From Dokdonia sp. (GTDB lineage Bacteria; Bacteroidota; Bacteroidia; Flavobacteriales; Flavobacteriaceae): 50,804 nucleotides of DNA. Under the pieces are notes generated by a model. It did not search any database. It saw nothing but the letters and a program-made list of their open reading frames with translations, and had not been told where the DNA came from. The translations under genes and the position numbers were made by a program. Position 1 is the first letter of the stretch. Every line of letters begins with the position of its first letter. This document shows, in pieces, positions 1-50,747 of the stretch. The stretch covers positions 1 through 50,804 of the forward strand of contig JALZVV010000098.1 of NCBI GenBank assembly GCA_023299935.1, written 5' to 3'.

Positions 1-3000
1 GTAATGCGTTATACAGATGTATGGAATGACCTTACTGAAAAAATGGGTTATTGGGTAGATATGGAAGATCCGTATATCACCTACAAATCCAAGTATATGG
101 AGACTGTATGGTGGTTGCTTAAAAATATTTATAACAAAGATTTATTATATAAAGGTTATACAATACAGCCCTTTTCTCCTAAAGCAGGAACAGGTTTAAG
201 CTCACACGAACTTAATCAACCTGGTTGTTACCGTGATGTAACAGATACTACGGTTGTGGCTCAGTTTAAGGCTATAAAAGATCAACGTTTTGAAGCCTCA
301 CCTCTTGGAGGTGGTTTGGAAGGGGATATTTATTTCCTAGCTTGGACAACTACACCTTGGACATTGCCTTCTAATACCGCACTTACCGTTGGGAAGAAAA
401 TAGACTACGTACTTATAGAAACCTTTAATCAGTACACTTTTGAGCCTGTAAAAGTTATTCTTGCTAAGAATTTAGTTTCTAAGCAGTTTGATAAAAAGTT
501 TATTTCCGCTTCCGCGAAAGAAGAAATGGATGCCTACAATTCTGGTGACAAGAAAATACCATATCAAGTAATCCGCGAATTCAAAGGAGCAGACCTCCTA
601 GAATTGCGTTACGAGCAGTTGTTTGATTATGTATTACCTAATGATAATCCTCAAGATGCTTTTAGAGTCATTGCAGGAGACTTTGTTACTACAGAAGACG
701 GTACAGGAATCGTACATACAGCACCTACTTTTGGAGCAGATGATGCGCTAGTTGCAAAACAAGCCTCGCCAGAAGTGCCTCCACTACTTATTAAAGATGA
801 GAATGGAAACTTGGTGCCTTTGGTAGATCTCCAAGGAAAGTTTCGTCCGGAGATGAAGGAGTTTGGAAACAAATACATCAAAAACGAATATTATGATGAT
901 GGAGAAGCACCAGAAAAGTCTATGGACGTCGAGCTGGCTATCCGCCTCAAAGAAGAAAATAAAGCCTTTAAGGTAGAAAAGTATGTACACAGTTATCCAC
1001 ACTGCTGGCGTACCGATAAGCCTGTTTTATACTACCCATTAGACTCGTGGTTTATTAAAGTAACAGACTTTAAAGACCGTATGCACGAACTTAATTTAGG
1101 TATTAACTGGAAACCTAAAGCTACTGGAGAAGGACGTTTTGGAAACTGGCTTGCAAATGCTAACGACTGGAATTTATCCCGTAGCCGTTTTTGGGGAATT
1201 CCATTACCTATCTGGCGTACAGAAGATGGTACAGAAGAAATGCTCATAGGTTCTATAGCCGAGCTTAAAACCGAAATCCAAAAAGCATTAGACAAAGGTG
1301 TGATGGATAGCGACCCTTTTGCAGATTTTAAGGTGGGCGATATGAGCGATGAGAACTACGAGCTTGTAGACCTTCATAAAAACGTAGTAGACCGCATCAC
1401 GTTGGTTTCAGATTCTGGGCAAGCGATGACACGAGAAGCAGACCTTATAGATGTTTGGTTTGACTCTGGTAGTATGCCTTATGCACAATGGCATTACCCG
1501 TTTGAAAATAAAGAACTCGTAGAAAAAACTTGGCGCAAGGCAGATTTTATTGCAGAAGGGGTAGACCAGACTCGTGGTTGGTTTTATACCCTACACGCTA
1601 TTGCAACAATGACTTTTGACGATGTTGCCTATAAAAATGTGGTTTCTAACGGACTTGTACTAGACAAAAAAGGGCAAAAAATGTCTAAACGTCTCGGTAA
1701 TGCTGTAGATCCATTTGAGACATTATCTACCTACGGAGCAGATGCTACCCGCTGGTATATGATAAGCAATGCAAACCCTTGGGATAACCTTAAGTTTGAC
1801 CTAGAAGGGATAGAAGAGGTAAAACGTAAATTTTTCGGAACGCTATATAATACTTATGGTTTCTTTGCTTTATATGCCAATCTGGATAATTTCGCTTTCG
1901 CGGAAGCAGAAATTGACCTAGAAAAACGTCCAGAAATAGACCGCTGGATTCTATCTGAATTGCACACCCTAATCGCCAAAGTAGATAGCTTTTACTCAGA
2001 ATACGAGCCTACCAAAGCAACCAGAGCAATAGACAAATTTGTACAAGAAAACCTATCCAATTGGTTTGTGCGTCTCTCTAGAAGACGTTTCTGGAAAGGA
2101 AGCTATGGAGAAGATAAAATAAGCGCATACCAAACCTTATACACTTGCTTGCTTACCGTTGCAAAACTAGGTGCTCCCGTAGCCCCATTTTTTATGGAGC
2201 GCTTATATAAAGACCTCAACGTGGTAACTGGAAAAGAAAAAACAGAAAGTATACATTTATCACTTTTTCCAGAAAGTAACACGAGTTATATAGACAGTGG
2301 TTTAGAGCAAAAAATGCGCAAGGCACAAACGGTTAGTTCACTAGTGCTTTCGCTTAGGGCGAAAGAAAAAATCAAAGTACGCCAACCACTACAACGTATT
2401 ATGATTCCTGTGCTTACTCCTACCGAAAAAGAAGAGATTATAGCCGTTTCTGATTTAATCAAGTCTGAGGTTAATGTAAAAGAAATAGAACTTATAAGTG
2501 ATGATTCTGGCATATTAGTAAAACAAATCAAGCCTAACTTTAAAGTGCTAGGCCCTCGCTTTGGAAAAGATATGAAACTGATTGCTAATGCAATACAAGA
2601 TTTTGGTCCAGATCAAATCTCAAAAATTGAAAGAGATGGGCAACTAGATGTGGAAATTAACGGAAAAATGACTACTTTACTACTGTCAGACGTTGCGATA
2701 AGCTCTCAAGATATAGATGGGTGGCTAGTGGCTAGTCAAGCAGGCGTAACTGTCGCTTTAGACGTTACTATCTCAGACGAATTAAAAAAAGAAGGGGTAG
2801 CAAGAGAGTTGGTAAATCGTATACAAAACTTGCGTAAAGACTCTGGTTTTGAAGTAACAGATCGTATTAAAATAGTGTTACAAGAAGACACGTTAATTAA
2901 TCAAACTGTAGCAGATAACGCGGCTTATATTAAAACAGAAACACTAGCAGATTCACTAGAAGTGATGAACAAAGTAAAAGATGGCTTAGAAATAAGTTTT

Positions 3001-3469: not shown

Positions 3470-4090
3470 ATGAAAGCATTGCTATTATTATTGTCACTTC
3501 CTATGTGCCTTCTTGCCCAGAAACGCATTGAGAATACCTTTGATGCAAAGGGTATTAAGACCTTACATATCCATAGTGATGCCATTTTTAAAATAGCAAT
3601 AACGACTGAGGCGCTAGACAAAATAACCATAAAAACGATTATTGAAGGAGAAACCTATGAAAGCTCTGTTGTGAAAACAGTCATTGTAGGTGAACGGTTG
3701 GAAATAAGTACCGGGCGCTTACCTGATTTCATCCCTTTTAATGATAAGCTCTCAGCCCACAAGGTGCTTTCTATAGAGTTAGTCATTAGTATCCCTAAGG
3801 ATATTGATATTGATATTCGTTCGGTCCTAGCAGAGGTTTCCTTGCAGGGGGACTGCGGTTCCATTGCTATTAATCTAGGAAGAGGTGGGTTTATTGGGAA
3901 TGCGTTGCGCTTTCGCGAAAGCGCAATAAACACCATTTCTGGCAACATTACTCTCGCATTGTATGAAGAAGCTAGAATCACTTACCGTTCTAGAAACGGA
4001 ATGGTTGCGGTGCCTACTAATTTTAACAATGGTCCTCTTTGCCAGATACAAAGTATTCATGGTGATATAGAAGTGCTTCAAGTAAAGTAA
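3470..4090 (+). CDS. Secreted hypothetical protein, DUF4097/adhesin-like beta-repeat
   Basis: Signal peptide; repeated INTISGNI / SRNGMV / IQSIHGDI beta-turn motifs. Confidence 0.6.
   Translation: MKALLLLLSLPMCLLAQKRIENTFDAKGIKTLHIHSDAIFKIAITTEALDKITIKTIIEGETYESSVVKTVIVGERLEISTGRLPDFIPFNDKLSAHKVLSIELVISIPKDIDIDIRSVLAEVSLQGDCGSIAINLGRGGFIGNALRFRESAINTISGNITLALYEEARITYRSRNGMVAVPTNFNNGPLCQIQSIHGDIEVLQVK
3905..3926. repeat. Iterated palindrome copy 3 (22-bp perfect), in the DUF4097-like gene
   Basis: TTGCGCTTTCGCGAAAGCGCAA, encodes LRFRESA. Confidence 0.9.
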
Positions 4091-7177: not shown

Positions 7178-7262
7178 GCAGTACTAGATATGTAAAATTT
7201 ATTCTAGTTGCAATTTACGTATTTCTAAAAACTGATAAAGGCAAGTTTTATAGTATTTTTCA

Positions 7263-7278
7263 CGCTTTCGCGAAAGCG
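7263..7278. repeat. Iterated palindrome copy 4, intergenic rimK/uvrC
   Basis: CGCTTTCGCGAAAGCG. Confidence 0.9.
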
Positions 7279-7306
7279 CACTCCATAAGAATATATATCT
7301 TTGAGT

Positions 7307-9101: not shown

Positions 9102-11339
9102 ATGAAATATCTACTATTTTGCATAATGTTGATTTTATCTGGTATTGCCAGTGGTCAAATAGTATCTGAACATGAAGATATAAAAGTAGGGCTTGTATTG
9201 AGTGGCGGTGGGGCAAAAGGATTGGCTCACGTAGGCGTTATAAAAGTACTAGAAGAAGCTGGCGTACGTGTAGATTATATCGCGGGCACTAGTATGGGAG
9301 CGGTAATAGGTGGTTTATATGCTTCTGGATATAACGCTCAACAATTGGATTCCATCATAAAAGAAGTAGATTTTGATAAAATAATACAAGACAATGTCCC
9401 CAGAAGCGCAAAGACTTTTTATGAAAAAGAAGATACAGAACGTTATGCGATTACACTTCCTTTTGACTCCTTTAAACTATCGTTTCCACAATCTTTATCT
9501 AAGGGTCAGAACACCTATAATTTATTAGCTCAAACACTAGATCACTTGAGTGGTATAGACAATTTTGAGGAACTTCCTATTCCTTTCTTTTGCATTGCTA
9601 CAGACGCCACAAACGGTGAGCAAATTATTCTGGATAAAGGCTTTCTTCCGGAAGCAATAGGTGCCAGTGGTGCATTACCCAGCCTCTTTAGCCCCGTGGC
9701 ACTAGGAGACAAACTACTAATAGATGGGGGTGTAGCAAATAATTACCCCATAGACGAGTTACGCGCCAAAGGTGTAGATATTATCATTGGGGTTGATGTT
9801 CAGGATGATTTACGTTCTAAGGAAGAGCTTGGTACCGCTCCAGAGATTCTTATTCAAATCAGTAATTTCAGGTCAATCGCCTCTATGCAGGCTAAAAGAG
9901 ATAGTACTGATATTTATTTAAAGCCGGATGTTACTAACTACTCTGTGGTTTCTTTTGGAGATAAATATGAAATTATTGAAAAAGGTGCCGCTGCTGCTAA
10001 CGAACAATTTGATGCGCTAAAAGGAATTAGTATGCGGCAAAGTTCGCTTTCGCGAAAGCGACCCATTTCTAATCCCATGCCACAAGACAGCATAACAATA
10101 CACGCAGTTGAACTAACTGGTAATGAAAATTATACCCGCTCTTATATTTTAGGTAAGTTAAAACTAGCTCCTCCGGCAACCCTAAGCTATGGAGATTTTG
10201 GAGATAGAATTAATAATCTTGCAGCCACAGAAAACTTTAAACGCATAGGTCATCGTTTTCACAATATCCCGGAGGGGAAGCTACTTTCTATGAAGTTACA
10301 GGAATCAGAAAGTCGGCAATTTGTTCGTGTAGGGCTTCATTATGACGATCTTTTTAGAACTGCCGCCCTAGTAAACTTTACTAGAAAACGCTTACTTTTT
10401 AATAATGATATCGCTTCTTTTGATTTTATTCTTGGTGAAAATTTGCGGTATGAATTTAATTATTACATTGATAAAGGATATTACTGGAGTGTAGGTGCCC
10501 GGTCTATTTTAGACGATTTTCAAAAAGGGGTTAGTGCTCGCCTTTTAGAGCAAACCAGTGCACTAGATTTTTCTAGTATAAATCGTGTGCGAATCGATTA
10601 TCAAACCTTTACCAACCAGATTTATCTACAAACACTTTTTATGAAAGAGTTTTCTTTAGATCTAGGGGTTCAACATAAATTTATTGATATTGAAACGTTA
10701 ACGGTAGAGGATGATGATCTCACTCAACCCGGATTAATTTTTGATCAAAGTAATTTTTATGGGGCGTATGGTCAGATAAAATTTGACACTTTAGATAATT
10801 TATACTACCCGACTTCTGGAGTATATTTTGATGGAGATTTTGATTTGTTTTTATACGCTTCTGATTTTAATAATAACTTCACAGAATTCTCCATTGCTAA
10901 TGCTAGTTTTCTTTATGCAAAAAAGTTATTGCCTAAACTCACCTTACAGACTGGAATAGACGGCGGCTTTAAAATAGGCGGTTCTGAGGTTCGTTCTTTA
11001 GATTTTTTCTTAGGAGGCTATGGCAATAAGAAGGTAAATAATTTCGTCTCTTTTTGGGGTTATGATTTTATAAGTATCACAGGAGGTGGATATGTAAAAG
11101 CAAGCTTTTTATTTGATTACGAACTCTTTAAAAACCACCACGCATCGCTAGGGGCAAACTTTGCAAATGCAGGTAATAACATCTTTCAATCAGAAGAATT
11201 CTTCTCTTCACCGGATTTCTCCGGTTACACAGCAGGTTATGGAATTGAGACATTACTAGGTCCTTTAGAGCTTAGATATTCCTATAGTCCAGAGCTAGAC
11301 CGTAATGAATGGTATATAAGTCTTGGATTTAGATTTTAA
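9102..11339 (+). CDS. Patatin-like phospholipase with POTRA and Omp85-type barrel (PlpD-like)
   Basis: Signal peptide, GGGAKG, GTSMG and DGG motifs; C-terminal aromatic beta-strand (YISLGFRF). Confidence 0.88.
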   Translation: MKYLLFCIMLILSGIASGQIVSEHEDIKVGLVLSGGGAKGLAHVGVIKVLEEAGVRVDYIAGTSMGAVIGGLYASGYNAQQLDSIIKEVDFDKIIQDNVPRSAKTFYEKEDTERYAITLPFDSFKLSFPQSLSKGQNTYNLLAQTLDHLSGIDNFEELPIPFFCIATDATNGEQIILDKGFLPEAIGASGALPSLFSPVALGDKLLIDGGVANNYPIDELRAKGVDIIIGVDVQDDLRSKEELGTAPEILIQISNFRSIASMQAKRDSTDIYLKPDVTNYSVVSFGDKYEIIEKGAAAANEQFDALKGISMRQSSLSRKRPISNPMPQDSITIHAVELTGNENYTRSYILGKLKLAPPATLSYGDFGDRINNLAATENFKRIGHRFHNIPEGKLLSMKLQESESRQFVRVGLHYDDLFRTAALVNFTRKRLLFNNDIASFDFILGENLRYEFNYYIDKGYYWSVGARSILDDFQKGVSARLLEQTSALDFSSINRVRIDYQTFTNQIYLQTLFMKEFSLDLGVQHKFIDIETLTVEDDDLTQPGLIFDQSNFYGAYGQIKFDTLDNLYYPTSGVYFDGDFDLFLYASDFNNNFTEFSIANASFLYAKKLLPKLTLQTGIDGGFKIGGSEVRSLDFFLGGYGNKKVNNFVSFWGYDFISITGGGYVKASFLFDYELFKNHHASLGANFANAGNNIFQSEEFFSSPDFSGYTAGYGIETLLGPLELRYSYSPELDRNEWYISLGFRF
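10044..10061. repeat. Iterated palindrome copy 5 (18-bp), in the patatin gene
   Basis: TCGCTTTCGCGAAAGCGA, encodes SLSRKR. Confidence 0.9.
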
Positions 11340-18948: not shown

Positions 18949-19085
18949 ACAAACTTTACGGTTTGACAATATTTCCACCTAAAAATGTGAAGGTAATTTA
19001 CGTATTTAATAACTAAGTTTATGATAAAAAACCTTCATTTGTTACTAATAATTGTTTGTTTTGCACACACAACTGCCTCAAAACT

Positions 19086-19670
19086 ATGAAACGAATTGTG
19101 ATTTTTGCCTCTGGTAACGGAACAAATGCCCAGCGTATTATTAATCATTTTAAGGGCAGCTCGGATATCGAGGTTGCGCAGGTGCTCAGTAACAAGAAGA
19201 GTGCCAAAGTTTTGGAACGTGCTGCTGCCAGTGGTGTTAGAACAGCTAGTTTTGATAGAAATGATTTTTATAAGACAGACACTCTATTAAATATTCTTAA
19301 AAATATCAAGCCCGATATAATTGTACTAGCTGGATTTTTATGGCTCTTTCCAGAAAAAATAATTAATATTTTTCCAGATAGTGTTATAAATATTCATCCA
19401 GCATTACTTCCTGACTTTGGAGGAAAAGGAATGTATGGCAAACACGTGCATGAGGCTGTTTTCGCTTTCGCGAAAGCGAATTCAGAACAAAAAACCTATA
19501 CCGGAATCACCATTCATAAGGTAACTCCAGAGTATGATAAAGGTAAATATATCTTTCAAACCAAAATAGAAGTGACACCTGAAGACACCCCAGAAACTAT
19601 TGCTAAGAAAGTGCGTGAATTAGAGCACAAGCATTTTCCTGAAGTGATCGAGAAAATACTAATGGGATAA
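19086..19670 (+). CDS. purN: Phosphoribosylglycinamide formyltransferase
   Basis: FASGNGTN, VLAGF, INIHPALLP, GITIH. Confidence 0.93.
   Translation: MKRIVIFASGNGTNAQRIINHFKGSSDIEVAQVLSNKKSAKVLERAAASGVRTASFDRNDFYKTDTLLNILKNIKPDIIVLAGFLWLFPEKIINIFPDSVINIHPALLPDFGGKGMYGKHVHEAVFAFAKANSEQKTYTGITIHKVTPEYDKGKYIFQTKIEVTPEDTPETIAKKVRELEHKHFPEVIEKILMG
19461..19480. repeat. Iterated palindrome copy 7 (20-bp), in purN
   Basis: TTCGCTTTCGCGAAAGCGAA, encodes FAFAKAN. Confidence 0.9.
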
Positions 19671-22719: not shown

Positions 22720-24618
22720 ATGAGTGACGCTATAAAACATGAATGTGGGATTTCTTTAATCCGATTAAAGAAACCTTTAGAATTCTATAAAGAAAAATAT
22801 GGTACTGCCTTTTATGGTGTAAACAAAATGTACCTTATGATGGAAAAGCAGCACAACCGTGGTCAAGACGGAGCTGGTTTTGCTAGTATTAAACTTGATA
22901 TGGCGCCTGGAGAAAGATACATATCCAGACAACGATCTGTAGCACAACAACCTATACAGGATATTTTTGCAGAAATTAATGGTCGTATTAATGACCTTAT
23001 GGTTACCAATCCTGATAAAAAAGATGATGTCGCTTGGCAAAAAAAGAATGTTCCTTACATAGGTGAGCTATTAATGGGTCACGTACGTTATGGTACTTTT
23101 GGAAAAAACAGTGTAGAAAATGTTCATCCATTTTTAAGGCAAAACAACTGGATGCACAGAAACCTAATTGTGGCAGGTAACTTTAACATGACTAATGTAA
23201 GTACCCTTTTCAAAAAATTAGTTTCACTAGGACAACACCCTAAAGAAAATGCTGATACCATTACCGTTATGGAGAAAATAGGCCATTTTCTAGATGACGA
23301 AGTAGCAAAACTGTATAAAAAACTCAAAAAAGAAGGCTTTAACAAGCAACAAGCCTCGCCCCAAATAGCCGAGCGCTTAAAAGTAGCCAAAATTCTTAAA
23401 CGAGCTTCAAAAGATTGGGACGGCGGTTATGCTATGGTAGGTCTTTTAGGTCACGGAGATGCTTTTGTACTGAGAGACCCTGCAGGAATACGACCTGCAT
23501 ATTATTTTGAAAACGATGAGATTGCAGTAGTGGCTAGTGAACGCCCCGTAATACAAACTGCTTTTAATGTCGCTTTTGAGGATGTGCTTGAACTAGACCC
23601 GGGTTGTGCCCTTATTGTCAAGAAAAATGGAAAACTCAGTATTGAAAAAGTATTAGAACCGCTTACGCGAAAAGCTTGTTCTTTTGAACGCATTTATTTT
23701 TCCAGAGGTAGTGATGCCGAAATTTACGAAGAGCGCAAACAACTAGGGCGCTTATTAATGCCTGAAGTTCTTAAAAGCATTAATCACGATACAAAGAATA
23801 CTGTTTTTAGTTTCATCCCTAACACTGCAGAAACTTCTTTCTATGGACTAGTAGAAGCGGCTCAGGACGAGCTCAACAGACAAAAGAAGGAAGAAATCCT
23901 AGCTTCAAAAGGACAGTTGGATGATGTAGGCTTGGAGAAAATACTTTCGCGAAAGCTTAGAACAGAAAAGATTGCTATTAAAGATGCAAAGCTCAGAACT
24001 TTTATTACCGAGGATAGTAGTCGTGATGATCTTGTGGCTCACGTATATGATGTGACTTATGGGGTGGTCCAGCCTAAGGACACGCTGGTAATTATAGATG
24101 ATAGTATTGTGAGAGGTACTACACTTAAAAAGAGTATTATTAAGATGATGGCTCGTCTTGAGCCTAAAAAAATAGTTGTTGTTTCCTCTGCGCCTCAAAT
24201 CCGTTATCCAGATTGTTATGGTATTGACATGGCTAAGCTTGAAGATTTTATTGCTTTTAGAGCTGCAATTGCCCTGTTAGATGAAAGAGGTCTTGGAGAT
24301 ACTGTGCATGAGGTTTACAAAAAATGTAAAAAACAGGTAGACCTAAAAGACAAGGACGTAATCAACTTTGTAAAGGAAATATATGCTCCTTTTACAGATA
24401 AAGAAATCTCTGCAAAAATTGCAGAATTACTAAGTGACGAAACTGTTAAGCCAGAAGTAGAAATTATTTATCAAACTGTAGATAATCTTCATAATGCTTG
24501 TCCTAAAAACTTAGGCGATTGGTATTTTACAGGAGACTATCCTACAGACGGTGGGCATCGTGTTGTAAATAAGGCTTTTATTAATTATGTAGAAGGAAAT
24601 AGTGAGAGAGCCTACTAA
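22720..24618 (+). CDS. purF: Amidophosphoribosyltransferase
   Basis: HECG propeptide/Ntn Cys, HNRGQDGAG, GHVRYGT, CSFERIYFSR, IIDDSIVRGTT. Confidence 0.93.
   Translation: MSDAIKHECGISLIRLKKPLEFYKEKYGTAFYGVNKMYLMMEKQHNRGQDGAGFASIKLDMAPGERYISRQRSVAQQPIQDIFAEINGRINDLMVTNPDKKDDVAWQKKNVPYIGELLMGHVRYGTFGKNSVENVHPFLRQNNWMHRNLIVAGNFNMTNVSTLFKKLVSLGQHPKENADTITVMEKIGHFLDDEVAKLYKKLKKEGFNKQQASPQIAERLKVAKILKRASKDWDGGYAMVGLLGHGDAFVLRDPAGIRPAYYFENDEIAVVASERPVIQTAFNVAFEDVLELDPGCALIVKKNGKLSIEKVLEPLTRKACSFERIYFSRGSDAEIYEERKQLGRLLMPEVLKSINHDTKNTVFSFIPNTAETSFYGLVEAAQDELNRQKKEEILASKGQLDDVGLEKILSRKLRTEKIAIKDAKLRTFITEDSSRDDLVAHVYDVTYGVVQPKDTLVIIDDSIVRGTTLKKSIIKMMARLEPKKIVVVSSAPQIRYPDCYGIDMAKLEDFIAFRAAIALLDERGLGDTVHEVYKKCKKQVDLKDKDVINFVKEIYAPFTDKEISAKIAELLSDETVKPEVEIIYQTVDNLHNACPKNLGDWYFTGDYPTDGGHRVVNKAFINYVEGNSERAY
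23944..23956. repeat. Iterated palindrome copy 8, in purF
   Basis: CTTTCGCGAAAGC, encodes LSRK. Confidence 0.85.
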
Positions 24619-27582: not shown

Positions 27583-30500
27583 ATGGCTACACAATCTCCT
27601 GTTACAATTTACAACGCCTCTGCTGGTACTGGCAAAACCTATAGTCTTGTAAAGAATTATCTTAAGACATTAATTAGTAGCCGTTTCAAGAACAAGCATC
27701 GTCATTTGCTCGCTATAACTTTTACAAATAAGGCTGTAGCTGAGATGAAAGAGCGTGTGCTGAGTACACTTAAGGATTTTGCTTTTTATGAAAAAAAGGG
27801 TGATGTCATTCCCGCCATGCTTATAGATATTGCTTCAGAAACAGGCATACACCACAAAACGATTTCGCTTAAAGCGGCGACATTACTTAACGAGATATTA
27901 CACAACTATGCCGCTTTTGATATTGTAACCATAGATACGTTTACTCATCGCATATTACGTACTTTCTCTAGAGATTTAGACCTTTCTGGAAATTTTGAAG
28001 TCTCTCTAGATGTAAAAGACCTGCTCACAAAAGCTGTAGATAGAGTGATTGACAAAACAGGTGATGATAGTAAAATAACAGAAGTGCTCGTTAACTATGC
28101 CTTGCAAAAAACAGACGATAATAAGGACTGGAATATCTCACGCGACTTAAATAGCATCGCTGCGCTTCTTCTTAAAGAAAACGATGCCGCCGCTATGGCC
28201 TCTATGAAGGATAAAAGTCTAGACGATTTTACCGCACTTTCTAAAACACTATCCTCAAAAAAAGCGGCCGTCTTAACCGAAATTAAAGCCAAAGCAAAAA
28301 GCCTTCTAGAAACATTTGGTAATCTCGGATTAGATGCCTCCCATTTTAATAGAGGTACGTTTTACAATCACGTAAATAAACTTGCTCAAGACCCTTTGAG
28401 CTTCAAGTTTGAAAAAAAGAGCAAATGGCAAAATGATATAGAGCATTATAGCTTCTATACTAAAAGCACAGATCAAATTACAAAAAGTAGCATAGCCAGT
28501 ATTCAAGAAGAGCTCATCGTTTTTTTTAAAGAAACATTGGCTATGTCTTTTGAAGTGCAAACACTTGCTGCTTTTCAAAAAAACATTGTGCCCCTTTCCA
28601 CTTTACAACTCATTAATAAAGAATTACAAAATATTAAGGAAGAAGAAAATATCCTTCTTATATCTGACTTTAATGCAATTATTCACAAGTCTCTAAAGGA
28701 CCAGCCTGCAGCTTTTATTTACGAACGTATAGGAGAGCGATATACCAATTATTTTATAGATGAGTTTCAAGACACTTCTGTCTTGCAGTGGAACAATCTT
28801 GTGCCCCTTATTGAAAACGCCCTTATCTCAGAAAACAAAGATGCCACAACCAATAGTTTACTTATTGTAGGAGATCCTAAACAGGCGATTTATAGGTGGC
28901 GCGGTGGAAAAGCTGAACAATTTATTGATTTAGCCGGAGGCAACACTCCTTTCATTTCAAATGAAACATCTGTAGTTTCTTTAGACAAAAACTATAGAAG
29001 TCATAAAACAATTGTTCATTTTAACAACGATTTATTTTCGCATATCGCACAAGTTTTTGATAACCCTACTTATCAAGAAATCTATACACAAGACAATAAG
29101 CAGAAGTACAATTCTGATGCAGAGGGCTTTGTCTCCTTGCAGTTTATTGATGCAAAAACTAATGAAGATGCCCATGAAGTTTACCCTCCAGCCGTATTAG
29201 AAATTATAGAAAAAGCTACGCACGATGGATTTGAAAAAAGTGACATCTGTATTCTAATTAGAAGCAACAAACAAGGGGCTCTCATCGCGCAATATCTCAC
29301 AGAACAAAATATACAAGTAGTATCTTCAGACAGTTTACTAATAAAAAATTCTGCTACGGTTCTCTTTGTAGAAGATATTCTCACATTACAAGACCAGCCT
29401 CATAATATGCCTGCTGCTGTGCGAGCCTTGCGTTTTATTGCGCAGCAATATTCTATTGAAGATCCTCACCTTTTTATGGATAACTGGTTAAGCAGTGAAG
29501 ATTTAGGTTTGTATCAGTATCTAGAAAAGCTTGATATCCATTTCTCAAGCACAAGATTTGCGGCATTACCACTTTATGAGGGTGTAGAATATATAATTAG
29601 AAGCTTCCGTCTCACAGCACTTGCAGATGCTTTTGTCATAGGCTTTTTAGAAACAGTCTTTAACTACAGCACATCACAAAATAGAGGTTTGATTGGTTTT
29701 CTAGAATATTGGGGAAAGAAAAAAGATAACTTAAGTATTCACGCTCCATTACAAAAGGATGCTGTCCAAATAATGACCATACATAAATCTAAAGGTCTGG
29801 AGTTTCCCATTGTGATTTTTCCCTATGCAGATGGAGAGTTGTATTCTTCTAAAAACGAGCATCATTGGTATGACATCCCTAATAATGAATATAACGGGTT
29901 TACAAAACTAATGATCGGGCATTCAGAGACTCTCAAAAAGTATAGTGAGCAGGGAGAAGCCCGGTTTACAAAACGCCATAGTGAGCAAAAGTTTGACTCA
30001 ATAAATGTGCTGTACGTTGCACTTACTAGACCTGTGCAGCGATTGTATGTGTTGTCACGCTTTCGCGAAAGCAAAATACCTAAATATTACAGTGACCTAT
30101 TCATAAACTATCTTAAAGATAGCAAGCATTGGGAAGAAAATAAGATGCAATATAATTTTGGAACCCTACAAGCTCCAATACAAAAGAATGGTTCTATTGA
30201 GGACACCATTATGATTCCATTTACTTCTTCTAGCAAAGAAGAACATAATATTAATATCATTACCCGAAAAGGAATTGTAACCAATGAAGAGGTCGAAAAA
30301 GCAATCTACTATGGAAACTTGGTTCATGACCTCCTAGCAGAAATTAATACCGTAAACGATATCGAACACGCACTACAGCGTTTTGTGTTAGATGGTCACA
30401 TCCTAAAGGAAGAGCAGGATGGATTTTCCAAGACTTTACATAAAATAGTGCGGCATCCTGAACTTGCGCCGGGTTTTAGCAAAGAAAACACCATCTATAA

Positions 30501-30726: not shown

Positions 30727-30753
30727 TCTCTAAATTTGTGTAAAACTTATTTT

Positions 30754-31947: not shown

Positions 31948-32025
31948 AAATAGCCTAAGAAGTGCAAATAAATAGAAATTATAAAATTTTCACAAAATTA
32001 TCTTTGATGATTACTTTTAACCACT

Positions 32026-32033
32026 TACTTTTG
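32026..32033 (+). promoter_or_regulatory. -7 promoter element of the ompA-family gene
   Basis: TACTTTTG. Confidence 0.55.
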
Positions 32034-32066
32034 CTTTTAATTAACACTTAAACTTAAGAATAGAAA

Positions 32067-33488: not shown

Positions 33489-33524
33489 GAAGAAAAGAAA
33501 AATAATTCTTTCTAAATAATTAGT

Positions 33525-33555
33525 AAACGCCTCGCAAATTTGCGAGGCGTTTTTT
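33525..33555 (+). terminator. Rho-independent terminator of ompA
   Basis: AAACGCCTCGCA-AATT-TGCGAGGCGTTTTTT. Confidence 0.85.
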
Positions 33556-33566
33556 ATTTTAGGCCT

Positions 33567-36278: not shown

Positions 36279-36419
36279 CAATAGCACCACTTAACAACTA
36301 GCCCATAGTTACTCTTGACTGTTAATTAAACTTAAAGCTACATAAATTAACCGCTAGCCTTATTACTCAATAATTTTAGATTCATCCATTTCTCACCCCA
36401 TCTCCTCAATAGCTTCTTA

Positions 36420-38329: not shown

Positions 38330-38355
38330 AAGTTTTTTATTAGCTAGTATAGTAT

Positions 38356-40041: not shown

Positions 40042-40057
40042 CTCAATAAATTTTGAT

Positions 40058-40113
40058 CAAAAGTACTTGCCCATTGTTAAGCTATTGTTAATCCTAAATT
40101 AGTTGATTGTTAA
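40058..40113 (-). promoter_or_regulatory. Promoter (-7 TACTTTTG) with 11-bp-phased TTAACAAT direct repeats (Pho-box/OmpR-like)
   Basis: ATTGTTAA at 40073, 40084 and 40106; CAAAAGTA at 40058-40065. Confidence 0.55.
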
Positions 40114-40213
40114 TTCTTACTAAGGAGATTCAAAAGGAATAAAACGATATAAAAAAGACTTATACCAAACGAACTGCTAGCCTCACATCTCTGTGAAGCC
40201 CTGCTATTACTTG

Positions 40214-40287
40214 TGGAGAAGATGGGATTCGAACCCACGACCTCTTGACTGCCAGTCAAGCGCTCTAGCCAACTGAGCTACATCCCC
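40214..40287 (-). tRNA. tRNA-Ala (anticodon GGC)
   Basis: Reverse complement GGGGATGTAGCTCAGTTGGCTAGAGCGCTTGACTGGCAGTCAAGAGGTCGTGGGTTCGAATCCCATCTTCTCCA; G3:U70 Ala determinant; CCA not encoded. Confidence 0.96.
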
Positions 40288-40368
40288 TTTTTCGTGCCTT
40301 GCTATTGGTGCTGTGCCCAACACAGCTTTAGCTAAACCTGTCCCAACGGTAGGTCGGGAAGCGCAACA

Positions 40369-41166
40369 CTACTGCTCCTGAGCGGCTAATATAAGCAAGG
40401 GTTTTGTGGTATAAAATTCTTTTTTAAGCACTGTCCCTTTTTCCCAAAGCTTTTTAAAGAAGCCTCTCTTTCTTCGTACTACACAAATCATATCAGGATT
40501 ATGAGATTGGAAATGTTCTAGCACCCCTTGATAGGTAGTTGCGTTTTCTGTTCTAGTATAGCTGTTTTGTAACCTCTCTAATTTACCACTCACCTGCTCC
40601 ATTTCTAATGTGCTTGTAGGTGTTTTTACATGAAGCAAATCTAAGCTCGTATTGAAAAGTTTTATGAGCTTGGGCAATGGCTCCAGCATACTTTTCTTTG
40701 AGAAGACACCGTTCTTAAAGGCCATTAGTATTTTTTTGGGACCACTAAAAATAGCGCCATCTGGTACTATTAATACTGGCATATTTGTCCCTTTTACCAA
40801 CCCTCCGGTCGTTTTGCCTAAGTACACATCTTCATTTATTGAATTACTGCGAGGAGACAATACCATTAAATCTACTGGCACGTGTTTGTTAAAACGCTTA
40901 ACACCTTCTAAAACTTCTCCTTTTATGGGGTGAGCAATTACAGAAATTCCTTTAAAATCTACTTTTTTGAGCGCTTTTGATATCCGGTTTTCCGAATCCT
41001 CTTTAAGTAAGGAATTTACTTTAGACAATCCGCCAACTTTTGAGAATTCTTGAAAAACAGAGATAACATAAACATTTGCATCTGCTTCTTGGGCTAAATC
41101 AATAGCATACTGAAGTGTGTCTACGCCTGTTGATGAAGAGCCTAAAGGCACAAGTATATTTTTCAT
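40369..41166 (-). CDS. Universal stress protein (tandem Usp domains)
   Basis: MKNILVP, YA..LA, LGKTT..LVK....PVLIVP, PLLIL. Confidence 0.85.
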   Translation of the reverse strand: MKNILVPLGSSSTGVDTLQYAIDLAQEADANVYVISVFQEFSKVGGLSKVNSLLKEDSENRISKALKKVDFKGISVIAHPIKGEVLEGVKRFNKHVPVDLMVLSPRSNSINEDVYLGKTTGGLVKGTNMPVLIVPDGAIFSGPKKILMAFKNGVFSKKSMLEPLPKLIKLFNTSLDLLHVKTPTSTLEMEQVSGKLERLQNSYTRTENATTYQGVLEHFQSHNPDMICVVRRKRGFFKKLWEKGTVLKKEFYTTKPLLILAAQEQ

Positions 41167-41383
41167 AGATATGGGTCTTTTTATTTCTACTCTGCAAAAA
41201 TACTTCTATTCTGTGATTGTCTGTATATAAATTTGGGAAATAGCAAAATATGTGTTTTTCCTATTTATCTGTCAATCAATGTAAAACAGAAAATACATCT
41301 CTTGTTTTGTAAGGAATAATGATACTTATTGACTATACCCTAATGTTCATTGAACATTATCCTAACAAAAACGAATACTAATT

Positions 41384-42442
41384 ATGAAAAAAACTACCCT
41401 ATTCCTTGCCTTATTATTTTTGCCTTTTGTTCTTTTTGCACAAGTGTCCAATGTCGTTACAGGACTATCTGACCCCTTTGATGTGGTTGTAGAAGGTTCT
41501 GATGCTTACGTAGCTGAATTTTCTGGAAATGCCATTGTACGCGTAGACCTAACAGCTGCCAATCCAGTTCCAGAAGATGTGGTAACAGGTATTGCTGGGC
41601 CTACGAGTTTGCTTTTTGATGGCGATGATGTGTATATTTCTCAAGTGGGCGGGCTAATTACTCGAAGAGATGCTAGCGACCTTACCTCAAACCAGACTAC
41701 TATAGCAAGTGGCCTTGTAACACCAGTTTCTATGGTGCGTATAGATAATGACTTATATTTTTCTGAGTTTCAAGGAGGTCGTATCGGTCGTATAGACCTT
41801 GCTACAGGGAGCGTTACAACCGTAATAAATAATCTTAATTTTCCAGAGCAAATGGTACTTGTGGGCGATGAAATCTTTTTTGCGCACGCAGGTGCAAATC
41901 GCGTTTCAAAATTTGACGTTACAGAAGCAAACCCTGTAATTGAAGATGTAGTAACGGGACTCAACAATCCCGCAGGCATTCACGCTGTTGGAACCTCCCT
42001 TTTTGTTACAGAATTTATCAATAACGGTTCCATCTTTAGAATAGAAACTGCTGATGCTTCACCTACTGCCGAAGAAATAGTTGCTGGACAAAACAACCCT
42101 TTTGGGGTGAGTTTTTATGATGAAGATCTCTATTTTGTGCAAAATGGTTCTGGCATCCTGTCTCGTTACGAAGGGAATGTCCTTTCTATTAACGATCAAG
42201 TACTATCAGAAGCTTTGAGTCTTTTTCCTAACCCAAGTTCAGGGCCTATTACTATTAGTGGCTTAGAAAATGAAATTCTAAGTAGTGCAACAATTGTAGA
42301 TGTCACTGGCCGTATCGTAAAGGAGTTTGAAACATCAGAATTAACGTCAAATACTATTAATTTTAATGGGTCAAAAGGAACCTACTTTATAAACTTAAAT
42401 ACTACTAAGGGAGTTGTTGTAAAACAATTTGTAATACAGTAA
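41384..42442 (+). CDS. T9SS type A sorting domain protein with NHL-like beta-propeller repeats
   Basis: Signal peptide; about six VVTGL..P repeats; CTD LFPNP...GTYFINL...KQFVIQ. Confidence 0.85.
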   Translation: MKKTTLFLALLFLPFVLFAQVSNVVTGLSDPFDVVVEGSDAYVAEFSGNAIVRVDLTAANPVPEDVVTGIAGPTSLLFDGDDVYISQVGGLITRRDASDLTSNQTTIASGLVTPVSMVRIDNDLYFSEFQGGRIGRIDLATGSVTTVINNLNFPEQMVLVGDEIFFAHAGANRVSKFDVTEANPVIEDVVTGLNNPAGIHAVGTSLFVTEFINNGSIFRIETADASPTAEEIVAGQNNPFGVSFYDEDLYFVQNGSGILSRYEGNVLSINDQVLSEALSLFPNPSSGPITISGLENEILSSATIVDVTGRIVKEFETSELTSNTINFNGSKGTYFINLNTTKGVVVKQFVIQ

Positions 42443-42525
42443 ATCTATTTTAAGCCTTAAACCGTATGGCGGTTTATTCAGGAATAGACGTATTTTTGTA
42501 GTCGTACAATTAATCTGTTTATATA

Positions 42526-43029
42526 GTGATTTTACAAGCACAGGTTTCGGAAGTAGCAGGAATTCTCGAGCTAACTCGAGCTTGTGCTAAAGCTATGATT
42601 GCTCAAAATATCTTCCAATGGAATGAGCATTACCCCTCGCAAGAGGCTTTTGAGAATGACATTGAAAGAGGAGAGTTGTTTGTCTTAAAACAAGAAAACA
42701 AGCTTATAGGTACGGTCGTCATCTCCACACATATGGACGAAGAATATGTTCCAATTGAGTGGCTTACTCAAAACACAAACAACTACTATATCCATAGGCT
42801 TGCCGTGCGTCCTAACTATCAGCATAAAGGCTATGCGCGCCAGTTAATGGACTATGCAGAAGCTTTCGCGAAAGCAAAAAAAGCCGCCTCCATCCGGCTA
42901 GATACTTTTAGTCAAAATCATAGAAACCAGCGATTTTATGAAGCTCGTGGTTATCAACGGTTAGGAAGTATCTTTTTCCCGAAACAAAGTAAACATCCTT
43001 TTTACTGTTATGAACTTGTATGGCCGTAA
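42526..43029 (+). CDS. GNAT family N-acetyltransferase
   Basis: QWNEHYP, IHRLAV.P.YQHKGYA, IRLDT...N...RFYE.RGY. Confidence 0.88.
   Translation: MILQAQVSEVAGILELTRACAKAMIAQNIFQWNEHYPSQEAFENDIERGELFVLKQENKLIGTVVISTHMDEEYVPIEWLTQNTNNYYIHRLAVRPNYQHKGYARQLMDYAEAFAKAKKAASIRLDTFSQNHRNQRFYEARGYQRLGSIFFPKQSKHPFYCYELVWP
42862..42875. repeat. Iterated palindrome copy 10, in the GNAT gene
   Basis: GCTTTCGCGAAAGC, encodes AFAKA. Confidence 0.9.
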
Positions 43030-46186: not shown

Positions 46187-46326
46187 GATTGCGTTGGTTT
46201 AATCTGTTGCTTCTGTGCATAGCACAATTGCATAAAAGGAAAGATACAATTCTTTGTTAAAAACTAATGTAACTACATTTCAAAAATAGGGTTTTTCCTT
46301 ATTTTGCAGAGCCTTTGTATCTGGTA

Positions 46327-46342
46327 CGCTTTCGCGAAAGCG
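46327..46342. repeat. Iterated palindrome copy 11, 5' of the MBL hydrolase gene
   Basis: CGCTTTCGCGAAAGCG. Confidence 0.9.
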
Positions 46343-46363
46343 GGATGCACAAACCACAAACCC

Positions 46364-47224
46364 ATGAACATATATCCTATTGAAGCTGGAAATTTTAAAC
46401 TAGATGGCGGCGCCATGTTTGGTGTGGTACCCCAAAGTTTATGGACACGCACCAATCCAGCAGATGCAAACAATATGATTGATATTGCAGCCAGATGTAT
46501 GCTTATTGAAGATGGTGATAAACTTATTCTTGTTGATACGGGTATGGGTAATAAGCAGTCTGATAAATTTTTTGGGTACTATTATCAATGGGGAGACCAT
46601 ACCATAGACCGCTCCCTTGCGAGTCACGGTTTTAATAGAGATGATATCACAGATGTATTTATGACCCATCTGCATTTTGACCATTGCGGGGGGTCGGTTC
46701 AATGGAATAAAAACCGCACAGGCTATGAGCCTGCTTTTAAAAATGCTCGCTATTGGAGCAATAAAGAACACTGGCAATGGGCTACACAGCCTAATAGAAG
46801 AGAGAAAGCTTCTTTTCTTTCTGAAAATATCTTACCCCTTCAAGAAAGTGGGCAACTTCAATTTATTACTAGAGAAAACGGAGTTTATCAAGACAATAAC
46901 GAGCTGGGTTTTGGTATCTTTTTTGCAGATGGGCATACAGAAAAGCAAATGATACCGCATATTTCGTACAAAGGGAAAACCATTGTTTTTATGGCAGATC
47001 TTTTGCCCACAGCTGGACATTTACCTATTCCTTTTGTGATGGGATATGATACGCGACCATTGCTCACATTAGACGAAAAAGAACTATTTTTAAACACTGC
47101 TGCAGATAATGAGTATTATCTTTGGCTAGAGCACGATGCTCACAACCCTATAATAACCGTAAAACATACAGAAAAAGGCGTCCGCCTGAAAGAAAAATTT
47201 ACACTTAACGAATTTTTTAATTAA
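46364..47224 (+). CDS. MBL-fold metallo-hydrolase
   Basis: LDGGAMFG, THLHFDHCGG, GHT, ADL, HD; the ATG at 46364 is more plausible than TTG 46304. Confidence 0.9.
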   Translation: MNIYPIEAGNFKLDGGAMFGVVPQSLWTRTNPADANNMIDIAARCMLIEDGDKLILVDTGMGNKQSDKFFGYYYQWGDHTIDRSLASHGFNRDDITDVFMTHLHFDHCGGSVQWNKNRTGYEPAFKNARYWSNKEHWQWATQPNRREKASFLSENILPLQESGQLQFITRENGVYQDNNELGFGIFFADGHTEKQMIPHISYKGKTIVFMADLLPTAGHLPIPFVMGYDTRPLLTLDEKELFLNTAADNEYYLWLEHDAHNPIITVKHTEKGVRLKEKFTLNEFFN

Positions 47225-48905: not shown

Positions 48906-50747
48906 ATGAATACTATTTTTAAGCTTACGGTTTTTGTTGCGGTATTCGTTTTCGCGAAAGCGGACTCACTTGCACAAAACACATCATACTGGCAACAACA
49001 TGTAGATTATCAGATGGATATTGATATGAATGTCAATAACTATCAATACGATGGAAAACAGGAGCTAGTGTATACAAACAATTCTCCAGATACATTAAAG
49101 CAGGTGTTTTATCACCTTTATTTTAATGCTTTCCAACCCGGAAGTGAAATGGATGTACGTTCACGCACCATTGCAGATGCAGATAGACGTGTGCAGGACC
49201 GTATAAGTAAGCTAGGGCCGGACGAAATAGGCTTTATTGAAGTAAATTCTTTAAAACAAAACGGTAAAAAGTTAGATTTTCAAATAGCAGGAACCGTTCT
49301 TGAAGTTAATCTTGCTAAGCCTATACTGCCTGGTGCTAAAACTACCTTTAAAATGGATTTTAAGGGACAAGTGCCTGTGCAAGTACGCCGCAGCGGCCGT
49401 AATAATGCCGAAGGCGTTGCGCTTTCTATGACGCAATGGTATCCTAAAATGGCAGAATATGATTTTGAGGGTTGGCATGCAGATCCGTATATCGCTAGAG
49501 AGTTTCACAGTGTCTGGGGAGATTTTGATGTAAAGCTCACTATTGATGCAGATTATACTGTGGGTGGTACAGGCTACTTACAGAACGGAAACGAAGTAGG
49601 ACATGGTTATCAAGATGCAGGGGTGAAGCCAGGAAAAGCAAAAAAAGGGAAATACACCTGGCATTTTGTAGCTCCTAATGTGCACGACTTTACCTGGGCA
49701 GCAGATCCAGATTATATTCACGATACGCTGGAAGCAGAAAACGGAGTAAAACTCCATTTTCTCTATAAAAATGATCCTGAGATCAAAGAAAACTGGAAAA
49801 ACCTACAGCCTAAAACGGCTCAAATTTTATCCTACCTCAGCAAACACGTAGGGCAATATCCATATAAGCAATACTCTGTAATTCAAGGAGGAGATGGTGG
49901 TATGGAGTATGCCATGTGTACGCTCATCACAGGAAAACGTAAATTTGGAAGTCTGGTGGGAGTAACTGCACATGAGTTTGCACACACTTGGTTTCAATTT
50001 TTATTAGCTTCTAACGAGGCAAAACACGAATGGATGGATGAAGGATTTACCTCTTATATTTCTGCCCATGCTATGAACACGGTGATGGATGAAAATAAAG
50101 AGAGCCCTACCGCTGGTTCTTATAGTGGCTATTATAGACTCGTAGAGAGTGGATTTGAACAACCACAATCTACCCATGCCGATCGTTATAATAGAAATTT
50201 TGCATACGGGGTAGCAGCATACAGCAAAGGAGCTGTTTTTCTTTCTCAATTAGAATATGTGATTGGAAAAGAAAATGTGGCTAAAACACTCAAGAAATAT
50301 TTTGATGATTTTGCTTTTAAGCACCCTACACCTAACGATATCAAGCGCACTGCAGAGAAAGTATCTGGAATACAATTAGACTGGTATCTCACAGATTGGA
50401 CACAGACCACAAACACCATTGATTATGCGATCAAAGAAGTGGTGGCAGATGGGAATAAAACAAAAATAACGCTAGAGCGCAAAGGTTTAATGCCTATGCC
50501 TATTGATTTATATGTAACAATGGGCAACAAACAGGAGTCGCATTATATTCCATTGCGTATGATGCGTGCAGAAAAGGCTAACCCTACGCCAGATATGCCT
50601 AGAATGCAACAAGAAGACTGGCCTTGGACTAATCCTACCTATACCTTTACTATAGATGCACCACTATCTGCGATTGATACGATTATGATAGATCCAAGTA
50701 AACTTATGGCAGATGTAGATCAAGAAAACAATAGCTGGAAGAAATAA
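48906..50747 (+). CDS. M1 family metallo-aminopeptidase (secreted)
   Basis: GGMEY, HEFAH..(18)..E (WMDEG), YSKG. Confidence 0.92.
   Translation: MNTIFKLTVFVAVFVFAKADSLAQNTSYWQQHVDYQMDIDMNVNNYQYDGKQELVYTNNSPDTLKQVFYHLYFNAFQPGSEMDVRSRTIADADRRVQDRISKLGPDEIGFIEVNSLKQNGKKLDFQIAGTVLEVNLAKPILPGAKTTFKMDFKGQVPVQVRRSGRNNAEGVALSMTQWYPKMAEYDFEGWHADPYIAREFHSVWGDFDVKLTIDADYTVGGTGYLQNGNEVGHGYQDAGVKPGKAKKGKYTWHFVAPNVHDFTWAADPDYIHDTLEAENGVKLHFLYKNDPEIKENWKNLQPKTAQILSYLSKHVGQYPYKQYSVIQGGDGGMEYAMCTLITGKRKFGSLVGVTAHEFAHTWFQFLLASNEAKHEWMDEGFTSYISAHAMNTVMDENKESPTAGSYSGYYRLVESGFEQPQSTHADRYNRNFAYGVAAYSKGAVFLSQLEYVIGKENVAKTLKKYFDDFAFKHPTPNDIKRTAEKVSGIQLDWYLTDWTQTTNTIDYAIKEVVADGNKTKITLERKGLMPMPIDLYVTMGNKQESHYIPLRMMRAEKANPTPDMPRMQQEDWPWTNPTYTFTIDAPLSAIDTIMIDPSKLMADVDQENNSWKK
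48947..48962. repeat. Iterated palindrome copy 12 (1 mismatch), in the M1 peptidase signal-peptide region
   Basis: CGTTTTCGCGAAAGCG, encodes VFAKA. Confidence 0.75.

What the first reader, a model, noticed from the sequence alone, without database searches (positions are those of the whole stretch)
507..48962. Highly iterated palindrome (CG)CTTTCGCGAAAG(CG) dispersed through core genes: candidate undescribed chromosome-wide DNA signal
Seen: 12 copies in 50.8 kb, starting at 507, 1893, 3905, 7263, 10044, 14483, 19461, 23944, 30058, 42862, 46327 and 48947. Nine have the exact core CTTTCGCGAAAG and three have one mismatch, giving about one copy per 4 kb. A rough base-composition estimate (~36% GC) expects about 0.002 exact 12-mers per window, so chance is very unlikely. 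Flanks are unrelated, and there are no target-site duplications or transposase nearby. Established: short motifs saturating coding DNA are known as DNA-uptake sequences (Neisseria DUS, Pasteurellaceae USS), cyanobacterial HIP1, and binding sites for chromosome organisers (parS/ParB, NBS/Noc, SBS/SlmA, matS/MatP). The TTTC-n-GAAA arms echo parS (TGTTTCACGTGAAACA) and NBS (ATTTCCCGGGAAAT) but with a shorter spacer. I do not recognise this motif as described for Flavobacteriaceae. Inference: a dimeric DNA-binding, uptake, methylation or recombination system maintains it.
Basis: partly seen in the sequence, partly recalled or inferred. Interest (0 to 1): 0.92.

Follow-up and report, generated by a model that had tools for sequence, protein, structure and literature searches.

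The report
Evenly spaced 52-base palindromic genome signal
Dokdonia, Nonlabens and a few related marine bacteria carry hundreds of evenly spaced, letter-perfect copies of one 14-base palindrome with mirror-image G/T-rich arms, written over their genes, which likely marks the cell's own DNA for uptake and recombination through a reader protein that is still unidentified.

Summary
Real. The core is the 14-mer GCTTTCGCGAAAGC: 393 exact copies in this 2.6-Mb genome, 275 in genes against 0-3 in protein-preserving codon shuffles. It is abundant in Dokdonia (34 of 34), Nonlabens and one unnamed sister genus, weak in Leeuwenhoekiella (4-189), and at background in 295 of 301 family genomes and all 250 other phylum genomes sampled. 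Copies repel each other (0 of 202 gaps under 500 bases; 20 expected), mostly replace codons in place, and move between positions in orthologues. No RAYT transposase, ParB paralogue or conserved methylase (three families) tracks it; a partial gene-subtraction hunt found no reader. Best reading: a self-DNA uptake/recombination signal akin to USS/DUS and HIP1 (0.45); chromosome-organising site (0.25). Not found in the papers searched. This scan noted the same motif before on other Nonlabens/Dokdonia DNA (12 notes); none of the 9 note summaries I saw mentions the arms.

The parts
508..521 (.). degenerate copy (2 mismatches to the 14-mer) in ileS, read ASAKE
1894..1907 (.). copy with 1 mismatch in ileS, read AFAEA
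3909..3922 (.). exact 14-mer in unannotated ORF 3470-4090, read FRES; arms about 3890-3941
7264..7277 (.). exact 14-mer, intergenic between a RimK-family ligase (-) and uvrC (+); arms about 7245-7296
10046..10059 (.). exact 14-mer in patatin-like gene, read LSRK; same site in Dokdonia locus L010
14483..14496 (.). exact 14-mer in IPExxxVDY gene, read AFAKA; no length change against most orthologues
19464..19477 (.). exact 14-mer in purN, read AFAKA, in a loop about 4 residues longer than in motif-free genera
23943..23956 (.). copy with 1 mismatch in purF-like gene, read LSRK; replaces LSKK/LSAR/LSER-type codons without a gap
30059..30072 (.). exact 14-mer in AddA-like helicase-nuclease gene
42862..42875 (.). 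exact 14-mer in GNAT acetyltransferase gene
46328..46341 (.). exact 14-mer at the 5' end of ORF 46304-47224 (YtnP-like hydrolase); may lie upstream of the true start
48948..48961 (.). copy with 1 mismatch near the 5' end of an M1 peptidase gene

Best explanation
The 14-base palindrome and its two polar arms of about 19 bases form one symmetric 52-base DNA signal, which is likely read by a two-fold symmetric protein complex acting in DNA uptake or the recombination that follows, so that own-lineage DNA with a site would be taken up or integrated preferentially and sites would accumulate to about one per 4-6 kb. Shown: exact core, preferred extension TTAC...GTAA, arms that are G/T-rich and C-poor 5' of the core on each strand with fixed A peaks at -5 and -14/-15, mutual repulsion of sites, gain and loss mostly by in-place substitution at permissive protein positions, arms that come and go with the core. 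Inferred: a protein reader; graded affinity that lets sites build up step by step; a second site close by adds nothing, hence the even spacing; the step affected is uptake or recombination.
For: Anatomy: positions 3, 4 and 7 of the half-site almost never vary (1, 1 and 6 single variants) while position 6 does (47), although 3 and 6 are both wobble positions in the commonest frame; 1 spacer-length variant. Arms: G/(G+C) about 0.8 from -4 to -18, falling to 0.5-0.67 beyond -19, G+C content unchanged, 684 sites; present at all three codon positions and in non-coding arms, where the fine structure repeats in two data sets (170 and 271 arms); no pairing between arms beyond composition; bias graded with core quality 0.32/0.24/0.19/0.12/0.02 for 0-4 mismatches; absent at orthologous positions in motif-free G115 (0.53 vs 0.76, 92 sites) and in motif-rich relatives that lack the site there (0.52 vs 0.77, 31 sites). 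Behaviour that matches USS/DUS as described in passages of PMC2817400, PMC2397512 and PMC7811141: even spacing, excess outside genes, permissive positions (31% amino-acid identity at sites vs 62% gene-wide), depletion in the most conserved genes, extra DNA of large genomes poorly marked (53 sites per extra Mb; 229 vs 168 per Mb in 18 of 33 congeners that are >=99% complete). Intact ComEC, ComEA-like and DprA genes in the motif-rich genomes tested. Palindromic HIP1 raises transformation in cyanobacteria (abstracts of 10.1101/2024.09.10.611283 and PMC13756078), and a flavobacterial relative, Riemerella columbina, prefers its own DNA (section 16 of PMC7965970). Two Nonlabens phages without an annotated integrase have no copy at <=2 mismatches in 35.7 and 35 kb.
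Against: No uptake, transformation or recombination was measured, and no reader was found. ComEC, ComEA and DprA are equally present in motif-free G115, so they do not discriminate. USS and DUS are non-palindromic and about 3-5 times denser (0.80-0.89 per kb, vs 0.15-0.27 here), and DUS pair up in terminators, whereas only 12 of 116 intergenic copies lie between convergent genes, about 16 expected by length. Even spacing and a symmetric footprint fit a chromosome-organising protein equally well. 37 of 115 orthologous coding sites differ by 5-12 bases with none at 4, which stepwise mutation alone explains less easily than block replacement. 6 of 123 sites in this genome sit at a 12-base length gain (0.94 expected, P=4e-4, post hoc), not repeated in other loci (1 of 63). 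The same word in Nonlabens and Dokdonia, which the quick trees do not join, is odd for a species-specific tag. AddB shows no special likeness between the motif-rich lineages.
Confidence: 0.45

Rival explanations
1. An array of binding sites for a lineage-specific chromosome-organising protein (loop anchor, spreading or wrapping factor) that needs about one site every few kb anywhere on the chromosome.
For: Symmetric 52-base footprint with A peaks about one and two helical turns from the dyad; under-dispersion (variance/mean 0.47 in 5-kb windows); positions move while density stays (28 of 115 orthologous coding sites shared; same gene, different position in 7 of 111 gene pairs); flat distribution over the first 2.17 Mb of a complete chromosome (chi-square P=0.81); copies in three temperate-type phage contigs (found by scanning for the motif, so biased) but not in two phages without integrase. 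HIP1 periodicity has been read this way (passages of PMC5861425).
Against: Density falls as genomes grow; stretches of 12-23 kb without a site, some in core genes; sister Leeuwenhoekiella genomes live with 4-189 copies; no ParB/Noc paralogue; no terminus-type gap in the 2.17 Mb listed (the last 1.1 Mb was not listed).
Confidence: 0.25
2. Sites are written by an enzyme (cut-and-patch conversion, or insertion of 10 bases with a 2-base GC duplication) rather than selected for a function; the arms are a scar of strand-specific processing beside the cut.
For: Bimodal differences at unshared sites (25 at 1-3, 0 at 4, 37 at 5-12 mismatches); six 12-base gains; exact copies outnumber one-mismatch copies 393 to 105; 5' arms are G/T-rich, the polarity that unchecked scan notes report beside HIP1 and hairpin repeats.
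Against: 140 of 186 alignable coding sites show no gap against motif-free orthologues (96 of 123 and 44 of 63); the 12-base excess did not replicate; arms keep their G+C content, stop sharply at -19 and have fixed fine structure, unlike a deamination gradient; writing alone does not explain why sites repel each other; no Y1 transposase in two complete motif-rich genomes.
Confidence: 0.15
3. A 'self' mark for a defence system that destroys or ignores DNA according to whether a site lies within a few kb.
For: Even spacing; temperate-type phage contigs carry it near host density (3-4 per 18-20 kb).
Against: Two Nonlabens phages with no copy evidently infect their host (the host's own motif content was not checked); large Dokdonia genomes keep much poorly marked DNA; no defence gene was shown to track the motif.
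Confidence: 0.07
4. A by-product of methylation-directed repair, as proposed for HIP1.
For: CG-rich palindrome; HIP1 co-occurs with GATC and CGATCG methylases (passages of PMC4390886). PF07669 matches in 5 of 5 motif-rich genomes.
Against: PF00145 not found in 10 of 18 other Dokdonia-genus genomes, G248 or G374; PF01555 over the cut-off in 2 of 14; PF02086 not found in G268, G305, G307, G308, G248, G014; single-contig G305 and G308 have none of the three over cut-off. The PF07669 hits are proteins of unlike lengths and weak in G248. The inner words are at background once the motif is masked (TCGCGA 0.98 of expected).
Confidence: 0.05
5. A transcription-level element (regulator site, terminator or RNA hairpin).
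For: Fourfold excess per base outside genes; 56 of 275 coding copies in the first 120 bases, 33.6 expected.
Against: 70% of copies are inside genes in all three frames; no preference for convergent gaps; no arm pairing; positions are not kept between species; no Rfam family at the sites.
Confidence: 0.03

Closest known systems
HIP1 (GCGATCGC) and alternate highly iterated palindromes of cyanobacteria
   Same: Palindromic, chromosome-wide, mostly in genes, conserved beyond codon need, non-random spacing, sometimes extended at both ends, linked to transformation (PMC4390886 and PMC5861425 passages; abstracts of PMC13756078 and 10.1101/2024.09.10.611283).
   Different: 14-22 bases instead of 8; 150-270 per Mb instead of 300-2700; different phylum; no conserved methylase of three families tested; sharp 19-base arms; repulsion at under 1 kb rather than a period of tens of kb.
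DNA uptake sequences: USS of Pasteurellaceae and DUS of Neisseriaceae
   Same: Excess of perfect copies, even spacing, excess outside genes, permissive protein positions, scarcity in acquired DNA and highly constrained genes, weakly specified flanks around a strict core (passages of PMC2817400, PMC2397512, PMC7811141).
   Different: Perfect palindrome rather than a polar word; longer core and two mirror arms; not paired in terminators; lower density; no receptor known and uptake not tested.
Chi sites of RecBCD/AddAB (recalled)
   Same: Dispersed signal tied to recombination; G/T-rich sequence on the 5' side (Chi in GT-rich islands is recalled, not checked).
   Different: Chi words are 5-8 bases, non-palindromic and polar (recalled); here neither 8-base half is abundant alone (26 and 31 vs 17 and 22 expected) and AddB follows species divergence.
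parS/ParB, NBS/Noc, SBS/SlmA, matS/MatP (recalled)
   Same: Palindromic 12-16 base sites read by dimers.
   Different: Hundreds of sites instead of tens; no ori or ter bias in the part listed; canonical parS and a single ParB exist separately.
REP/REPIN repeats with RAYT (TnpA-REP) transposases (recalled)
   Same: Short abundant palindrome, enriched between genes.
   Different: Mostly coding, no clusters or pairs, mostly no length change, no Y1_Tnp gene in complete G301 and G248.

Membership tests
HIP1 | The octamer GCGATCGC or a derivative | tested here: not met
   The core is an unrelated 14-mer; GATC is depleted, 0.62 of expected.
HIP1 | Palindrome far above chance, mostly coding, conserved at DNA level | tested here: met
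   275 vs 0-3; 28 of 115 orthologous coding sites letter-perfect between species.
HIP1 | Cognate methylase co-distributed with the motif | tested here: not met
   PF00145, PF01555, PF02086 each missing from motif-rich single-contig genomes; PF07669 inconclusive; PF02384 not tested.
USS/DUS uptake sequences | Preferential uptake of DNA carrying the word | not testable with these tools
   Needs an uptake assay.
USS/DUS uptake sequences | Even spacing, core-genome bias, permissive positions, gain without insertion | tested here: met
   (a minor 12-base insertion route is not excluded).
USS/DUS uptake sequences | Non-palindromic word, often paired in terminators | tested here: not met
   Perfect palindrome; 12 of 116 intergenic copies convergent, about 16 expected; no gaps under 500 bases.
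USS/DUS uptake sequences | Competence machinery in the host | tested here: inconclusive
   ComEC, ComEA-like and DprA present, also in motif-free G115; no pilus or receptor tested.
parS/NBS (ParB-Noc family sites) | A ParB-family reader with matching specificity; sites biased to or away from ori/ter | tested here: not met
   One ParB in 5 of 5 genomes, canonical parS present, flat distribution over 2.17 of 3.29 Mb.
REP/RAYT | Y1 HUH transposase gene and extragenic, clustered hairpins that spread by insertion | tested here: not met
   No Y1_Tnp in G000, G301, G248 (2 of 5 genomes had one); 70% coding.
Chi | Short polar single-strand word that switches RecBCD/AddAB | tested here: not met
   Palindromic 14-mer whose halves are not abundant alone; activity on AddAB not testable here.

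The most novel reading that the evidence does not exclude
The first sequence-specific self-DNA signal in Bacteroidota and a new design: a methylation-independent 'two-way Chi', where a dimeric enzyme cuts or halts at the dyad and leaves, on either side, a 3' end whose last 26 bases are G/T-rich with a 3-base ripple suited to loading RecA; its gene was shared between the Nonlabens and Dokdonia lineages, making them one gene-exchange community.
Probability: 0.15. Interest if true: 0.9.

Novelty: new variant of a known kind. Interest (0 to 1): 0.72.

Why it matters
Only two uptake-sequence families and the cyanobacterial HIPs are known to saturate genomes and bend protein sequences this way, and HIP1's job is still argued. 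This motif is longer and far more specific, has a measurable 52-base anatomy, occurs in culturable marine heterotrophs, and comes with natural controls: motif-free sister genera and a 4-189 gradient inside Leeuwenhoekiella. If it boosts transformation it is also a practical handle for genetics in Dokdonia and Nonlabens. The AFAKA/FRES/LSRK peptides it imposes can mislead protein comparisons in these genera.

Tried and rejected
Reader hunt by subtraction: 2.16 of 2.95 Mb of motif-free G115 plus other motif-free loci against the 2,427 ORFs of G000 left 1,078 without an orthologue, inflated by the 27% of G115 not held. Of these, 185 had a counterpart in 1.2 Mb of motif-rich loci; 74 were scanned with Pfam and were mostly housekeeping genes; a further 263 were filtered, part of them read by eye, and 8 scanned. 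Three candidates were profiled and dropped: a 381-aa protein (present in motif-poor G383), a NUMOD4-HNH protein (not found in G301, G268, G248, G014; 18 of 40 matched) and a 490-aa TPR-like protein (34 of 60 matched, many motif-free; not found in G309 with 700 copies). AddB gave no sign of transfer between motif-rich lineages. An identity-outlier scan against distant motif-rich loci showed nothing. Membrane and secreted candidates were largely not examined, so an uptake receptor could have been missed. Extended hairpin: no arm covariation and no folding gain (P=0.51). Other palindrome 'dialects': none in 80 loci or in 2.12 Mb of G115. One search's count of shared sites was dropped (perfect pairs counted twice, alignments seeded by the motif) in favour of codon alignments. 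The ESM Atlas did not answer. No RNA holder was listed. The difference table was cut, so strain variation at the sites could not be read. Trees are quick searches; no one-clade test was run. Literature: no paper holds the 14-mer; 14 hold the inner 10-mer, the 12 listed titles unrelated; Dokdonia+palindrom (6), Nonlabens+palindrom+repeat (9), 'highly iterated palindrome'+Bacteroidetes (0), and two wider searches showed no description, judged from listings only; supplements and most subscription papers were not searched.
Full report
Observation. All 12 sites are present. In the whole genome (2.62 Mb, 37% G+C, 85% complete) the 12-mer occurs 403 times and 393 of these are the 14-mer GCTTTCGCGAAAGC; no other long word comes close. 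With a simple ORF caller, 275 copies are coding (frames 163/47/65, read AFAKA, FRES or LSRK) and 118 lie in the 9% non-coding DNA; 20 shuffles of synonymous codons that keep every protein give 0-3. Twelve control palindromes of the same letters have 0 exact copies.

Who has it. One genome per genus of the family: 4 of 301 have 393-797 copies, 2 have 14-16, 48 have 1-6, 247 none; the inner 10-mer gives the same picture plus weak excess in G028, G061 and G099 (26-42). All 34 genomes of the own genus have it (70-906; 33 of 34 at 272 or more). Named records place it: Dokdonia 827, Nonlabens xiamenensis 553, Leeuwenhoekiella 189 and 25, a further record 276, and 0-5 in the other 45 of 50 genomes searched, taken from 80 loci; 23 Leeuwenhoekiella-genus genomes have 4-189; 250 other phylum genomes have at most 4. 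The window's genome is sister to the Dokdonia record; Dokdonia, G248 and Leeuwenhoekiella form a clade, while Nonlabens and G014 are long branches of unsure place outside it (quick trees). In the six low-count genomes examined, the copies fetched sit in a shared heavy-metal efflux island (RND pump, outer-membrane efflux protein, P-type ATPase), likely imprinted in a motif-rich host.

Anatomy. Single-base variants summed over both halves: G1 10, C2 25, T3 1, T4 1, T5 15, C6 47, G7 6; spacer-length variants 1. The preferred extension is TTAC before and GTAA after; a 21-base form alone has 161 and 156 matches on the two strands of G301. Beyond that, each strand is G/T-rich and C-poor 5' of the core: G/(G+C) near 0.8 from -4 to -18, down to 0.5-0.67 past -19, with unchanged G+C content (684 sites). 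The bias holds at all three codon positions and in non-coding arms, where A peaks at -5, -14 and -15 and a weaker G/T ripple at -7, -10, -13 appear both in this genome (170 arms, where the pattern was first seen) and in other genomes' loci (271 arms). The two arms do not pair beyond composition. The bias scales with core quality and is missing at orthologous positions that lack the core, in motif-free G115 (0.53 vs 0.76) and in motif-rich relatives (0.52 vs 0.77). So the unit is about 52 bases, symmetric, and the arms arrive and leave with the core. Reading this as a protein footprint is inference; a strand-specific mutation scar is the alternative, and unchecked scan notes report the same polarity, over longer distances, beside HIP1.

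Spacing. 0 of 202 gaps are under 500 bases (20 expected, minimum 6 in 300 randomisations), 2 under 1 kb (38 expected), CV 0.59 vs 0.91. The first 100 sites of G301 (mean 3.8 kb; 1 of 99 under 500, 12 expected) and the first 80 of G338 (mean 6.1 kb; 1 of 79 under 1 kb, 12 expected) agree. A subset of sites is flat across the first 2.17 Mb of the 3.29-Mb chromosome of G301. Larger genomes add only about 53 sites per Mb (18 of 33 congeners). Site-free stretches of 12-23 kb exist.

How sites come and go. In codon alignments between this genome and motif-rich relatives, of 115 scorable sites 28 are perfect in both, 25 differ by 1-3 bases, none by 4, 37 by 5-12, and 25 lie near a gap of no consistent length; 5 more near gene ends were not scored. 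Several genes carry the site at different positions in different species. Against motif-free orthologues most sites show no gap (96 of 123; 44 of 63), at positions of 31% amino-acid identity in genes of 62%. A minority route by 12-base gain is suggested in this genome (6 of 123, 0.94 expected) but did not replicate (1 of 63). Genes at 80% identity or more are depleted (3.9 vs 12-17 per 100 kb).

Phages. They were selected by the motif, so this shows only that such phages exist. Nonlabens phages P12024S and P12024L, with no integrase annotated, have none at up to 2 mismatches (about 5 expected each at the density's Nonlabens genome).

Machinery. One ParB in 5 of 5 genomes and canonical parS in G000; no Y1 transposase in G000, G301, G248; no methylase family of three tracks the motif, a fourth is inconclusive; ComEC, ComEA-like and DprA are present but also in motif-free G115; AddB follows species divergence. 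The subtraction hunt was incomplete (73% of one motif-free genome) and found no reader; this leaves open any gene in the part not compared, any membrane protein, a gene missing from this 85% assembly, and a universal protein with changed specificity.

Mechanism. The population-level behaviour matches what passages of PMC2817400, PMC2397512 and PMC7811141 describe for uptake sequences, and the one other palindromic case, HIP1, improves transformation (abstract of 10.1101/2024.09.10.611283; abstract and section 14 of PMC13756078). I therefore commit to a self-DNA signal for uptake or the recombination after it (0.45), with a chromosome-organising array as the main rival (0.25; passages of PMC5861425) and enzyme-written sites third (0.15). 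It works like USS/DUS or HIP1 but fails their membership tests on word, symmetry and methylase (passages of PMC4390886). Statements on Chi, Noc, SlmA, MatP, REP and RecA preferences are recalled, not checked.

Novelty. Not found in nine paper searches of the held library (listings only unless cited above; no supplements read). This scan had already noted the motif on other Nonlabens/Dokdonia DNA (12 notes hold those words, 9 seen), also without a reader. Added here: the 52-base anatomy with its orthologue control, the third genus and the Leeuwenhoekiella gradient, the genome-size relation, the phage contrast, and the negative tests for ParB, RAYT and methylases.

Noticed in passing
L212-L219 (G101, G277, G138, G115, G016): Motif-free genera share a heavy-metal efflux island that carries 2-4 copies per 20 kb with shared spacings (933 bases), a traceable mark of passage through a motif-rich host.
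   Followed up: partly
window 27583-36278: AddA-like and AddB-like genes are split by kbl and an OmpA-family gene; 30073-42861 is a 12.8-kb stretch without a site.
   Followed up: partly
window 19056-19670: purN has a loop about 4 residues longer than in motif-free genera exactly at the site; six more such 12-base gains genome-wide.
   Followed up: partly
G000 contig C23, near 27211 and 29112: Two canonical parS sites, separate from the motif.
   Followed up: yes
G328 (own genus, 70 copies) and G028, G061 (sister pair, 10-mer 42 and 27): Genomes with intermediate counts that may have lost or weakened the system; good natural controls.
   Followed up: partly
G000 contig C132, 16837-17712: ComEA-like protein: the second helix-hairpin-helix scores weakly in G000, G301 and G014 but well in motif-free G115; not tested further.
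   Followed up: no
L495 (G000 C121) and L496 (G000 C92): A patchily distributed NUMOD4-HNH gene (89% identical, two copies, in G349), and a C5 methylase beside a BsaWI-like nuclease gene.
   Followed up: partly
L002 and L047: Contigs filed under a cyanobacterium and an Acidimicrobiia bin encode a pyruvate kinase 80-81% identical to this window's; L002 falls with Winogradskyella in the tree: likely contamination.
   Followed up: no
window 40214-40287 (-): A tRNA gene, the only Rfam match in the window.
   Followed up: no
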